Shown here: one piece after another, positions 41,367-42,035 of the stretch
Position numbering within the stretch: the first letter of the stretch is position 1
How the letters are laid out: each line of letters opens with the position of its first letter
Source: Escherichia coli
GTDB lineage: Bacteria > Pseudomonadota > Gammaproteobacteria > Enterobacterales > Enterobacteriaceae
Assembly (NCBI RefSeq): GCF_003019035.1
Contig: NZ_CP027447.1
Direction: 5' to 3' (one strand)
DNA length: 64,000 nucleotides
Translations under genes and position numbers: made by a program
The notes under the pieces: model-generated
Databases searched by the model: none
What the model saw: only the letters and a program-made list of their open reading frames with translations
Told to the model about the DNA's origin: nothing

Positions 41367-42035
41367 ATGCCCGTCAAGGATTTGACGGGCATTACTGCAA
41401 AGGACGCGCAAATGTTATCTGTAGTTAAACCTCTTCAGGAATTTGGTAAGCTCGATAAATGTTTGTCCAGATATGGCACGCGCTTCGAGTTTAATAATGA
41501 AAAGCAAGTTATATTTTCAAGTGATGTCAATAGCGAAGATACTTTCGTTATTTTAGAGGGCGTTATCTCTCTGCGTAGAGAAGAAAACGTACTTATCGGT
41601 ATTACCCAGGCTCCTTATATTATGGGGCTGGCTGATGGTTTAATGAAAAACGATATACCATACAAATTAATATCAGAAGGAAATTGTACGGGATATCATC
41701 TGCCAGCCAAACAAACCATCACCCTTATTGAACAAAATCAACTCTGGCGAGACGCTTTTTACTGGTTAGCCTGGCAAAATAGAATTCTGGAATTACGTGA
41801 CGTACAGCTCATTGGGCATAATTCCTACGAACAAATCCGCGCAACGTTATTATCAATGATTGACTGGAATGAAGAATTACGCTCACGTATTGGTGTGATG
41901 AATTATATCCATCAACGTACACGCATATCGCGTTCTGTCGTCGCAGAAGTTCTCGCTGCTTTACGTAAAGGCGGCTATATCGAAATGAATAAAGGCAAAC
42001 TGGTCGCTATCAACCGTTTGCCTTCAGAGTATTAA
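41367..42035 (+). CDS. yaiV: putative Crp/Fnr-like DNA-binding protein YaiV
   Basis: 222-aa ORF; C-terminal segment resembles a Crp-family HTH; directly downstream of yaiT. Confidence 0.8.
   Translation: MPVKDLTGITAKDAQMLSVVKPLQEFGKLDKCLSRYGTRFEFNNEKQVIFSSDVNSEDTFVILEGVISLRREENVLIGITQAPYIMGLADGLMKNDIPYKLISEGNCTGYHLPAKQTITLIEQNQLWRDAFYWLAWQNRILELRDVQLIGHNSYEQIRATLLSMIDWNEELRSRIGVMNYIHQRTRISRSVVAEVLAALRKGGYIEMNKGKLVAINRLPSEY

What the first reader, a model, noticed from the sequence alone, without database searches (positions are those of the whole stretch)
41367..42035. Crp/Fnr-like regulator YaiV immediately downstream of the autotransporter
The 222-aa protein has a Crp-family-like layout (beta-roll-like middle, C-terminal HTH) and starts 40 bp after the yaiT stop. 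It may be a dedicated regulator of yaiT or of neighbouring envelope genes (ampH is convergent).
Basis: inference. Interest (0 to 1): 0.3.

Follow-up and report, generated by a model that had tools for sequence, protein, structure and literature searches.

The report
iprA (yaiV): known CRP-fold regulator
The ORF is the known E. coli gene iprA (yaiV), a CRP/FNR-shaped DNA-binding regulator that sits behind the adhesin gene ehaB across enteric bacteria; it is ordinary, except that relatives of this family also tend to sit next to adhesin genes.

Summary
The ORF at 41367-42035 is real. It is iprA (formerly yaiV), "hydrogen peroxide resistance inhibitor IprA" (NCBIfam equivalog, 457 bits). The conserved protein has 207 aa and starts at 41412, not 222 aa from 41367. 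The ATG at 41367 lies inside a conserved RNA hairpin (41365-41394), and in most other species the 15-codon extension is closed by stop codons.

The Crp/Fnr-like layout is supported. An AlphaFold model (pLDDT 82.7) matches only CRP-family structures (Vfr, CLP, CAP, NtcA) over about 200 residues. The C-terminus is a winged HTH (Pfam HTH_46, E 6e-31). The cAMP-contacting residues of CRP and the cysteine cluster of FNR are absent.

"Dedicated regulator of yaiT/ehaB" is not shown.
- For it: ehaB-iprA synteny in about 70 of 80 species; a conserved GTCyG-N4-CGGAC palindrome near -60 of the ehaB promoter; 10 of 15 distant paralogues lie beside fimbrial or inverse-autotransporter genes.
- Against it: iprA survives where ehaB is lost or broken, and published mutant phenotypes (peroxide resistance, fimbrial expression) are at other loci.

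The gene, its Crp-family assignment and the synteny are already published. Interest is low.

The parts
41412..42035 (+). iprA (yaiV) coding sequence, 207 aa plus stop; conserved start codon
   Evidence: RefSeq annotation of a 100%-identical strain; NCBIfam NF008810 equivalog, 457.5 bits against a cutoff of 359, covering residues 16-222 of the long ORF; modal length 207 aa in homologues; start conserved in nearly all of 80 species; dN/dS 0.06-0.11
41367..41411 (+).
   Evidence: Closed by stops or lacking a start codon in most species; no Shine-Dalgarno; its ATG sits in the hairpin stem; the peptide MPVKDLTGI is the translation of the hairpin
41365..41394 (+). Conserved RNA hairpin (UAAUGCCCGUCAA-GGAU-UUGACGGGCAUUA), terminator- or attenuator-like, 17-22 nt upstream of the iprA start
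   Evidence: -19.8 kcal/mol; on 34 sequences 95.6% of cells are paired, 7 of 10 pairs have compensatory changes and 0 of 500 shuffles reach this; the U-G and G-U wobbles pair only on the + strand; followed by a canonical U-tract in Kluyvera and a degraded one in E. coli; no Rfam family
41400..41404 (+). Shine-Dalgarno AAGGA for the 41412 start
   Evidence: Read from the sequence; AAGGA or AGGA is conserved at this position in the alignment
41329..41345 (+). Small hairpin directly after the ehaB stop (UUCUUCA-CUC-UGAAGAA). The same position holds a strong GC-rich terminator in Enterobacter and Kluyvera
   Evidence: MFE fold of the spacer gives 3 hairpins, -28.9 kcal/mol, z = -5.3; spacer sequences of 78 species
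41332..41359 (+). Candidate sigma-70 promoter of iprA: TTCACT, 16 nt, TTTAAT (spacer 18 in K-12). The predicted transcription start falls at the base of the hairpin
   Evidence: Shimada et al. 2014 report RpoD-holoenzyme SELEX binding in the yaiU>yaiV spacer, flagged H-NS, with TTCACT-18-TTTAAT (PMC3946193); T(A/T)TTTAAT is conserved 7-9 nt before the hairpin in Escherichia, Citrobacter, Salmonella and Raoultella; not found by the consensus scan
38309..41326 (+). ehaB (yaiT/yaiU, seaB) autotransporter adhesin gene, intact here (1005 aa); upstream partner of iprA
   Evidence: directly upstream of iprA in about 70 of 80 species; the same synteny is reported in bioRxiv 10.64898/2026.01.14.699485
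38168..38181 (.). Conserved palindrome GTCCG-TAAC-CGGAC, 16 nt upstream of the predicted ehaB -35 and centred near -60; candidate operator for an unidentified dimeric regulator (IprA is one candidate)
   Evidence: Half-sites conserved and the 4-nt spacer variable across 65 species at a fixed distance from the promoter; only copy in the window; retained in S. diarizonae with an internally deleted ehaB. Binding not tested
38198..38227 (+). Predicted ehaB promoter: TTGAAC, 18 nt, CATAAT
   Evidence: Consensus scan; both hexamers nearly invariant in 65 species
42036..43193 (-). ampH, convergent neighbour; its stop codon abuts the iprA stop
   Evidence: tail-to-tail arrangement in all loci

Best explanation
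The feature is iprA (yaiV). It encodes a 207-aa transcription factor of the CRP/FNR structural superfamily: an N-terminal cNMP-binding-like beta-roll, a long central helix (the dimerisation helix in CRP), and a C-terminal winged helix-turn-helix of the family-specific HTH_46 type. It most likely acts as a homodimer on a palindromic DNA site read by its invariant recognition helix (R-S-V-V/I-A-E). It cannot sense cAMP as CRP does or oxygen as FNR does, because the residues needed for either are missing. Its signal, if any, is unknown.

iprA is the distal gene of a conserved adhesin-regulator module, ehaB-iprA. The 85-nt spacer is structured, and its main element is a conserved terminator-like hairpin just upstream of the ribosome-binding site. 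I infer that iprA is kept at a low level and partly coupled to ehaB. Transcription would come from attenuated read-through from the ehaB promoter, from a weak H-NS-silenced sigma-70 promoter in the spacer whose transcript would begin at the hairpin, or from both.

By published genetics its output is largely at other loci. Loss of iprA raises peroxide resistance and changes fimbrial gene expression. The most likely logic is that of an adhesin-linked regulator that adjusts other surface and stress programmes, comparable to PapX or MrpJ (that comparison is from my own knowledge).

Shown here: identity, fold, start codon, hairpin, synteny. Inferred: dimer, operator, mode of transcription, regulatory logic.
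For: - Identity: NCBIfam equivalog IprA, 457.5 bits. RefSeq annotates iprA in 5418 of 5426 E. coli genomes holding this DNA.
- Fold: AF2 mean pLDDT 82.7 with beta-roll, long helix and wHTH. The 50 listed Foldseek PDB hits are all CRP/FNR-family proteins, E about 2e-9, roughly 200 aligned columns, TM 0.5-0.6. Pfam HTH_46 E 6e-31 and cNMP_binding 17.2 bits. hhalign to CRP is colinear over 150 columns.
- DNA binding: the HTH is the most conserved part; S173-R174-S175-V176, A178-E179 and L181 are invariant in 25 sequences down to 50% identity.
- No cAMP or Fe-S sensing: CRP E72/R82/S83 align to G72/I82/P83. Only one Cys is invariant (C92) and there is no N-terminal Cys cluster.
- Module: hemB(-)-ehaB-iprA-ampH(-) in about 70 of 80 species, also reported.
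- Hairpin: covariation statistics and a constant 17-22 nt distance to the ATG.
- Promoter and silencing: Shimada 2014; GC 0.41 against 0.52-0.58 in flanking genes; FNR binding at yaiV appears only without H-NS/StpA.
- Coupling to the ehaB promoter: in Kluyvera, which lacks ehaB, -35/-10 remnants are followed directly by the hairpins and iprA.
- Effects at other loci: (all citing Herman et al. 2016).
- Family logic: 10 of 15 informative paralogue loci are adjacent to chaperone-usher fimbrial or inverse-autotransporter genes.
Against: - No DNA binding, operator, dimer or ligand has been shown, here or in the papers I could read. The primary paper (Herman et al. 2016) is not held, so phenotypes are second-hand.
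- CRP does not match at sequence level in the PDB search. The hhalign probability is very low (1.4%, E 0.037). Residue mapping to CRP is therefore approximate.
- In E. coli the hairpin lacks a proper U-tract, so termination may be weak.
- The consensus scan found no promoter in the spacer.
- The paralogue-context sample is small and hand-picked from the hit lists.
Confidence: 0.8

Rival explanations
1. IprA is the dedicated local regulator of ehaB. The dimer binds the conserved GTCyG-N4-CGGAC palindrome centred near -60 of the ehaB promoter, a class-I CRP-like activator position, and so controls ehaB and, through read-through, itself. This can coexist with effects at other loci.
For: - The 5-N4-5 geometry equals that of FNR sites (own knowledge). 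Arms are conserved and the spacer varies in 65 species at a fixed distance from -35/-10.
- It is the only copy in 64 kb.
- The IprA recognition helix is invariant in the same species.
- Synteny.
- Paralogues flank adhesin operons.
- Two paralogue loci carry GTCnn-N4-nnGAC palindromes in adhesin-side intergenic DNA.
Against: - No binding data exist; any conserved regulator could own the site.
- A single perfect site is not above chance in the window (expected 1.9 with at most 1 mismatch). Only its conservation is informative.
- iprA is kept where ehaB is deleted and the palindrome is lost (Kluyvera, Pluralibacter), and in K-12 where ehaB is split by IS3.
- Some Escherichia have a damaged left half-site, GTCCA.
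- The paralogue palindromes are a post-hoc pattern: 2 seen against about 0.15 expected from a background of 0.03 per kb.
Confidence: 0.3
2. IprA is a cyclic-nucleotide- or oxygen-sensing global regulator working like CRP or FNR.
For: CRP/FNR fold; weak cNMP_binding Pfam match (a precomputed PF00027 hit is listed for three homologue entries, P0062, P0080 and P0113); some sources name homologues 'CRP-like cAMP-binding protein' or 'cyclic nucleotide-binding protein'.
Against: - cNMP_binding scores 17.2 bits, below the 27.5 cutoff.
- The positions aligned to the phosphate-contacting R82/S83 and to E72 of CRP are I/P and G, and are variable within the family.
- There is no FNR-type cysteine cluster.
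- The family is restricted to Enterobacterales and evolves fast: 47-56% identity where AmpH keeps about 85%.
- The recognition helix RSVVAE differs from CRP's RETVGR.
Confidence: 0.05
3. The protein is 222 aa and starts at 41367, as in the older K-12 annotation and the finding.
For: The ORF is open from an ATG at 41367. A few gene calls in other species carry similar extensions (P0039, P0086).
Against: The extension is not conserved as an ORF; there is no Shine-Dalgarno; the ATG is sequestered in a stable, covarying stem. Where the extension does occur, its residues track compensatory stem changes (K/L to M/M), not peptide conservation. The NCBIfam model and RefSeq both start at M16.
Confidence: 0.05
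4. IprA does not act on DNA. It would lower RpoS-dependent catalase by protein-protein contact, with the HTH as an evolutionary relic.
For: The peroxide phenotype is reported as rpoS- and katE-dependent (Herman et al. 2016, from my memory of the abstract; not verifiable here). No operator is known.
Against: The HTH and wing are the most strongly conserved segment, in orthologues and distant paralogues alike. That is not expected of a relic.
Confidence: 0.08

Closest known systems
IprA/YaiV of Salmonella Typhimurium and E. coli (Herman et al. 2016, J Bacteriol 198:2166)
   Same: It is the same gene: NCBIfam equivalog match, RefSeq name and the same position between the autotransporter gene and ampH.
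   Different: Nothing substantive. This strain has an intact ehaB and a 2-bp shorter ehaB-iprA spacer than K-12.
CRP (CAP), Vfr, CLP, NtcA: CRP/FNR-family regulators with solved structures
   Same: Same overall fold and domain order, similar length, and a winged HTH with the Arg at the start of the recognition helix retained.
   Different: Sequence similarity is near noise. The cAMP-contacting residues are not conserved. The HTH belongs to Pfam HTH_46, and none of the Pfam matches at E <= 1 carries a Crp-type name. The gene is narrowly distributed, fast-evolving, AT-rich and H-NS-bound, not a core global regulator.
FNR
   Same: Fold class. A 5-N4-5 palindrome geometry is present at the neighbouring ehaB promoter (the FNR site geometry is from own knowledge).
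   Different: No N-terminal Cys cluster for an Fe-S centre; hhalign to FNR covers only 43 columns at E 0.45; the half-sites GTCCG/CGGAC differ from TTGAT/ATCAA.
Adhesin-operon-linked regulators such as PapX/FocX and MrpJ (own knowledge, not tested here)
   Same: A regulator gene placed at the end of, or beside, an adhesin locus, whose known effects are on other cell-surface or stress programmes. This placement recurs for HTH_46 paralogues.
   Different: Unrelated protein families (MarR-like and Xre-like against a CRP-like fold). For IprA, neither co-transcription nor targets were verified here.

Membership tests
IprA (NCBIfam NF008810, equivalog) | Full-length HMM score above the curated cutoff | tested here: met
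   457.5 bits against a cutoff of 359, profile 1-207 matched to residues 16-222 of the long ORF
IprA (NCBIfam NF008810, equivalog) | Conserved genomic position between the ehaB/seaB autotransporter gene and ampH | tested here: met
IprA (NCBIfam NF008810, equivalog) | Deletion increases hydrogen peroxide resistance | not testable with these tools
   Known only from secondary citations of Herman et al. 2016; the primary paper is not held
CRP/FNR superfamily of transcription factors | N-terminal 8-stranded beta-roll (cNMP-binding-like) domain | tested here: met
   The AF2 model has the strands; Foldseek aligns about 200 columns to CAP, Vfr, CLP and NtcA. The Pfam cNMP_binding match is sub-threshold, 17.2 against 27.5 bits, so this is met by fold, not by sequence profile
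CRP/FNR superfamily of transcription factors | Long central alpha-helix mediating dimerisation | tested here: inconclusive
   Helix 112-132 is predicted at pLDDT about 90. Dimerisation itself was not modelled or measured
CRP/FNR superfamily of transcription factors | C-terminal winged helix-turn-helix | tested here: met
   Pfam HTH_46 at E 6e-31, residues 153-220 of the long ORF; helices plus a beta-wing in the model
CRP/FNR superfamily of transcription factors | Binds a palindromic operator with 5-bp half-sites | not testable with these tools
   A candidate site, GTCyG-N4-CGGAC at 38168-38181, is conserved, but nothing shows that IprA binds it
CRP subfamily (cAMP receptor proteins) | cAMP-contacting residues E72, R82, S83 (and T127/S128) | tested here: not met
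   They align to G72, I82, P83, and the latter two positions vary within the family. The alignment has low confidence, but no R-S/T pair exists in that segment
FNR subfamily | Cysteine cluster (three N-terminal Cys plus one central Cys) ligating a [4Fe-4S] centre | tested here: not met
   Only C92 is invariant; C17 is variable; there is no N-terminal cluster

The most novel reading that the evidence does not exclude
IprA would be the founding member of an Enterobacterales family of CRP-fold, HTH_46 regulators (about 640 clusters at 50% identity) that are genetically attached to surface-adhesin loci: classical and inverse autotransporters and chaperone-usher fimbriae. In this reading, IprA binds the conserved GTCyG-N4-CGGAC site at -60 of the ehaB promoter. 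It would thereby link adhesin expression to RpoS-dependent stress resistance and to other fimbriae. The conserved intercistronic hairpin would set the ehaB:iprA expression ratio.
Probability: 0.25. Interest if true: 0.45.

Novelty: already known. Interest (0 to 1): 0.2.

Why it matters
As submitted, the finding re-describes a named gene whose Crp-family assignment and synteny with the autotransporter gene are in the literature. It therefore adds little.

What could matter is the mechanism. IprA's DNA targets, ligand and link to ehaB are still unknown, although its loss gives a multi-log gain in peroxide resistance (per Herman et al. 2016).

This analysis yields three concrete handles:
- the corrected start at 41412;
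- a conserved leader or terminator hairpin at 41365-41394;
- a conserved palindrome at the ehaB promoter, 38168-38181.

It also gives a family-level hint that HTH_46 proteins are adhesin-linked regulators. That hint would make the ehaB-IprA connection directly testable.

Tried and rejected
- **PDB sequence searches**. These returned only phycobilisome linker repeats, whose score is summed over individually insignificant stretches, and one FadR-type HTH. CRP did not match, so fold comparison was needed.
- **Rfam** on 37700-43400: nothing at E <= 1.
- **Consensus promoter/terminator scan**. It found no promoter in the ehaB-iprA spacer (TTTAAT fails its rule for position 2) and missed the hairpin because E. 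coli lacks the T-run.
- **Hairpin as a DNA operator** (GTCAA-GGAT-TTGAC fits GTCnn-N4-nnGAC). Rejected: U-G and G-U wobbles pair only on the + strand; loop length changes (3 nt in Kluyvera); the outer GTC/GAC is not kept in Phytobacter.
- **A second copy of the ehaB-promoter palindrome near iprA**: none in 80 loci.
- **Operator-like palindromes in paralogue loci**: 2 of the GTCnn-N4-nnGAC type in about 5 kb of intergenic DNA, against a background of 0.03 per kb. This is post hoc and weak.
- **KpfR of K. pneumoniae as a characterised family member** (PMC7861041). No sequence was available. A K. pneumoniae chromosome has only two family matches: the one inspected has no fimbrial genes nearby, and the other was not located but is probably the argG-yfaZ locus seen in another K. 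pneumoniae record. The lead was dropped.
- **hhalign to FNR**: uninformative.
- **The primary iprA paper** could not be read.
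Full report
**1. What is at the coordinates**

The ORF listing gives an ATG-TAA ORF of 222 codons at 41367..42035 (+). 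It begins 40 nt after the stop (41324-41326) of a 1005-aa autotransporter ORF (38309..41326), and it ends one base before the stop of a convergent 385-aa ORF (42036..43193, -).

The window is the E. coli tauD-hemB-ehaB-iprA-ampH-sbmA-yaiW region. A megablast of 41200-42200 hits 5418 of 5426 complete E. coli genomes, including strain SCU-301 at 100% identity. There RefSeq names the genes ehaB, iprA ("hydrogen peroxide resistance inhibitor IprA") and ampH. yaiV is the old name of iprA. yaiT/yaiU are the two halves of ehaB, which is split by IS3 in K-12.

**2. The start codon is probably 41412, not 41367**

- RefSeq starts iprA at window 41412, giving 207 aa.
- The NCBIfam equivalog model (207 positions, 457.5 bits, cutoff 359) matches residues 16-222 only.
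- Among 223 homologues the modal length is 207 aa.
- In 80 species-level loci an ATG homologous to 41412 is almost always present. The frame upstream is closed by a stop, or lacks a start codon, in most species.
- 41412 is preceded by AAGGA at a 7-nt spacing. 41367 has no Shine-Dalgarno and forms the first bases of a hairpin stem.
- Where gene callers did extend the ORF (P0039 MPVMDMTGI..., against MPVKDLTGI here), the amino-acid differences are the compensatory stem changes A:U to U:A.

The real gap is 85 nt.

**3. The protein**

Pfam gives HTH_46 (PF15977, "winged helix-turn-helix DNA binding") at E 6e-31 over residues 153-220 of the long ORF. It also gives a sub-threshold cNMP_binding match (17.2 bits against a cutoff of 27.5) over residues 46-124.

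An AlphaFold2 model built on a 25-sequence alignment has mean pLDDT 82.7. Its elements in order are: an N-terminal helix, eight beta-strands, helix 99-108, a long helix 112-132, four helices, and a two-stranded wing.

Foldseek against the PDB returns only CRP/FNR-family regulators among the 50 listed hits: Vfr 7ff8, CLP 3iwz, CAP 1g6n, NtcA 2xhk and M. tuberculosis CRP 3i54. E-values are about 2e-9 with around 200 aligned columns and TM 0.5-0.6. The rmsd is high (6-8 A), as expected when the two domains are oriented differently.

Sequence-level searches do not reach CRP. An hhalign to E. coli CRP is colinear over 150 columns but weak (E 0.037). In that alignment:
- the cAMP contacts E72, R82, S83 fall on G72, I82, P83, and the last two positions vary among orthologues;
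- the CRP recognition helix R-E-T-V-G-R corresponds to R174-S175-V176-V177-A178-E179, of which all but V177 (V or I) are invariant in the 25 aligned sequences.

There is no FNR-type cysteine cluster. C92 is the only invariant cysteine.

iprA is under purifying selection (dN/dS 0.06-0.11). It still evolves two to three times faster than ampH and about five times faster than hemB. Orthologues are 47-56% identical in genera where AmpH is about 85% and HemB about 93% identical.

The gene is AT-rich (GC 0.41 against 0.52-0.58 in flanking genes). This fits the H-NS binding reported for the spacer and the FNR binding at yaiV that appears only without H-NS and StpA.

Conclusion: this is a CRP-fold DNA-binding regulator that is neither a cAMP receptor nor an Fe-S oxygen sensor. 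Ishihama et al. 2016 already list YaiV as an uncharacterised member of the Crp family.

**4. What is published on function**

The primary paper, Herman et al. 2016, is not held. Papers citing it say that:
[quoted passage not shown] - a Salmonella iprA mutant has decreased fim, stbB, stcB, stdA and stfE expression and increased stbA expression.

From my memory of the abstract (not verifiable here), the phenotype depends on rpoS and partly on katE, and iprA is described as part of a two-gene operon.

Other published points: yaiV is induced 4.5 log2 by cysteine, with a predicted CyuR site at -75. It was up-regulated in Salmonella under low-shear culture.

**5. Genomic context across species**

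A scan of one genome per species found 115 loci. The 80 kept are all Enterobacteriaceae by their record titles, apart from one record titled Chryseobacterium that is probably mislabelled (see the observations at the end).

tblastn with the window's proteins shows hemB(-)-ehaB(+)-iprA(+)-ampH(-)-sbmA-yaiW in about 70 of them. A 2026 preprint on the Salmonella orthologue SeaB reports the same synteny.

Exceptions matter for the "dedicated regulator" idea. iprA is intact in all of the following:
- three Kluyvera species and a Pluralibacter MAG, where ehaB is absent;
- S. enterica diarizonae, where ehaB is reduced to a remnant;
- some Citrobacter, where ehaB is fragmented;
- K-12, where ehaB is split by IS3.

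**6. The ehaB-iprA spacer**

The 85-nt spacer folds into three hairpins (MFE -28.9 kcal/mol, z = -5.3 against shuffles).

The dominant hairpin (41365-41394, -19.8 kcal/mol) is conserved 17-22 nt upstream of the iprA ATG. It occurs in Escherichia, Citrobacter, Salmonella, Raoultella, Kluyvera, Trabulsiella, Superficieibacter, Pseudocitrobacter and Phytobacter.

On a 34-sequence alignment, 95.6% of cells pair, 7 of 10 pairs show compensatory changes, and no shuffle or slid register comes close. The 15 wobble cells (U-G and G-U) would be mismatches on the other strand. Together with the variable loop length, this argues for an RNA structure on the + strand and not a DNA palindrome.

In Kluyvera the stem is followed by UUUUUU, a canonical intrinsic terminator. 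In Citrobacter the tail is UUUAUUG. In E. coli it is AUUACUG, which is degraded.

The Enterobacter/Lelliottia/Leclercia clade lacks this hairpin. It has a GC-rich terminator right after the ehaB stop instead, followed by an AT-rich stretch of 35-45 nt. No Rfam family matches.

Shimada et al. 2014 found RpoD-holoenzyme binding in the yaiU>yaiV spacer and proposed TTCACT-18-TTTAAT. Here these hexamers are at 41332-41337 and 41354-41359, with a 16-nt spacer caused by a 2-bp deletion relative to K-12. The -10-like T(A/T)TTTAAT is conserved 7-9 nt before the hairpin. A transcript from this promoter would begin at the hairpin.

In Kluyvera cryocrescens the ehaB ORF is gone. The ATAATTGAAC -35 and a GCATACT -10 remnant of the ehaB promoter are followed within about 60 nt by the two hairpins and iprA. 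That fits transcription of iprA from the ehaB promoter.

My reading (inference): the hairpin is an ehaB terminator or iprA leader attenuator that keeps iprA low and partly coupled to ehaB. I cannot tell which promoter dominates.

**7. The ehaB promoter**

Alignment of the hemB-ehaB intergenic region from 65 species shows a nearly invariant -35/-10 pair: TTGAAC at 38198-38203 and CATAAT at 38222-38227.

Sixteen nt upstream lies a palindrome, GTCyG-N4-CGGAC (38168-38181). Its arms are conserved while the four central bases vary freely. That pattern is expected of a dimeric protein's operator. Its centre is near -60 relative to the predicted start.

It occurs once per locus, always at this place, and once in the 64-kb window. 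On its own, one such site is not beyond chance (1.9 expected at one mismatch or fewer). The evidence is its conservation.

The 5-N4-5 geometry is that of FNR-type sites (own knowledge), and IprA's recognition helix is invariant in the same species. IprA is therefore a reasonable candidate, but nothing here shows binding. The site is lost in Kluyvera and Pluralibacter, which keep iprA.

**8. The wider family**

A profile search of 1.84 billion representative proteins finds 643 clusters at E <= 0.001, and 469 at E <= 1e-10. Most listed hits are full-length, 200-250 aa. The ten tested all carry HTH_46.

I inspected the neighbourhoods of the distant members I could place. Fifteen were informative.

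| Neighbourhood | Members |
|---|---|
| Downstream of a chaperone-usher fimbrial operon, same strand | P0130, P0139, P0135 (with a tandem copy), H31 |
| Divergent from a chaperone-usher operon | P0143 (with a FimB/E-like recombinase between), P0181 |
| Directly upstream of fimA/papD | second copy in L101 |
| Two copies flanking a fimbrial operon | H24 |
| Divergent from an inverse autotransporter | P0141 |
| 66 nt downstream of an inverse autotransporter, same strand | H28 |
| Beside small outer-membrane-protein genes | H20; H22 and H18 (one locus, argG-yfaZ) |
| No adhesin within 7 kb | H13, H14, H32 |

Four further loci were too short to judge.

Ten of 15 is far above what I would expect for a random gene. 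My rough guess for that background is under 10%; it was not computed. The sample is also small and not random. Recognition-helix residues after the conserved S-R-S differ between paralogues, as expected if each has its own site.

It suggests an "adhesin-linked regulator" logic like PapX or MrpJ (own knowledge), but it does not show what IprA does at ehaB.

**9. Verdict**

The Crp/Fnr-like reading is correct and already published. The "dedicated yaiT regulator" idea is untested: new contextual evidence favours a link, while evidence from gene loss and from phenotypes at other loci argues against exclusivity.

Novelty: already known. Interest: low (0.2). The most novel reading not excluded is given separately (probability 0.25).

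**Other observations**

- The iprA and ampH stop codons abut with no spacer, and this holds across species.
- The ehaB 5' UTR holds a conserved TTGATGGATCAA with a GATC site (38268-38279). It also holds a conserved CCCTGAGGAGGG element around the Shine-Dalgarno (38290-38301).
- An FNR-like site with one mismatch lies inside iprA (41728-41741).
- Residues 97-143 show a weak, repeat-summed similarity to phycobilisome linker domains. I regard this as spurious.
- Some E. coli carry iprA disrupted by IS1 or truncated.

Noticed in passing
window 38309-41326: The autotransporter gene is an intact 1005-aa ehaB here. In K-12 MG1655 it is split by an IS3 element into two pseudogene halves (yaiT/yaiU) while iprA stays intact.
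   Followed up: partly
window 38168-38181: Palindrome GTCCG-TAAC-CGGAC, 16 nt upstream of the predicted ehaB -35. The arms are conserved and the 4-nt spacer is free in 65 species. The regulator that binds it is unknown.
   Followed up: partly
window 38268-38301: The ehaB 5' UTR has two blocks conserved at 90% or more across genera. One is TTGATGGATCAA (38268-38279), an inverted repeat with a 2-nt spacer that contains a Dam GATC site. The other is CCCTGAGGAGGG (38290-38301), a small inverted repeat that places the Shine-Dalgarno in a hairpin loop. Together they suggest post-transcriptional or methylation-sensitive control of ehaB.
   Followed up: no
window 41338-41353: This strain has a 2-bp deletion relative to K-12 in the ehaB-iprA spacer (GAAGAAATAGGTTATTTAATC against GAAGAAATACTGGTAATTTAATC). 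It shortens the proposed promoter spacer from 18 to 16 nt and alters the CyuR site predicted in PMC11408624. Both forms occur among Escherichia loci (L001 and L005 against L002-L004 and L006).
   Followed up: partly
window 42033-42038: The iprA stop (TAA, 42033-42035) and the ampH stop (42036-42038 on the minus strand) abut with no intergenic base. The tail-to-tail gap is 0 to about 10 nt in most loci (larger in Salmonella, Buttiauxella and one Citrobacter), so the 3' ends of the two transcripts must overlap. A weak terminator-like site for the minus strand lies inside iprA (42015-42002).
   Followed up: no
window 41728-41741: FNR-consensus-like site TTGAACAAAATCAA (1 mismatch) inside the iprA coding sequence. 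It may be the FNR ChIP signal at yaiV that Myers et al. 2013 saw only in the absence of H-NS and StpA.
   Followed up: no
IprA residues 97-143 (window about 41700-41840): phmmer and hmmsearch against PDB sequences give E 7e-9 to 9e-6 to multi-repeat phycobilisome linker proteins (CpcN, Glr1262), through a motif of the form L-x4-L-W/Y-R-x-F...QNR-x-x-EL...L-x-G...Y-x-Q. Each repeat alone is insignificant, and none of the seven Pfam matches at E <= 1 is a phycobilisome-linker family. Probably spurious, but unexplained.
   Followed up: no
E. coli genomes (hit H6, NZ_CP047010.1; proteins P0004, P0011, P0020): Some E. coli strains carry iprA interrupted by IS1, or truncated gene calls of 167-192 aa. 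Natural loss-of-function alleles therefore exist. Large deletions that remove iprA together with sbmA arise in gentamicin-selected biofilms (PMC11952850).
   Followed up: no
L074 (CACSKA010000001.1): A record titled 'Chryseobacterium sp. 18061' carries a typical Enterobacteriaceae hemB-ehaB-iprA-ampH locus closely similar to that of 'Citrobacter sp. 18056' (L075). This looks like a mislabelled or contaminated assembly.
   Followed up: no
L087 7523-7536 and L088 1190-1203: The sequence GTCCGGAACCGGAC has the same half-sites as the ehaB-promoter palindrome. It lies inside the coding sequence of the distant paralogue P0143, near the region encoding its HTH. It may be coincidence.
   Followed up: no
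L105 against L095 (Rahnella plasmids): R. victoriana has a chaperone-usher operon flanked by two HTH_46 genes between an M24 peptidase gene and yebG. R. aquatilis has only one HTH_46 gene at the same place and no fimbrial operon. This is a second case, besides Kluyvera iprA, of the regulator outliving its adhesin neighbour.
   Followed up: partly
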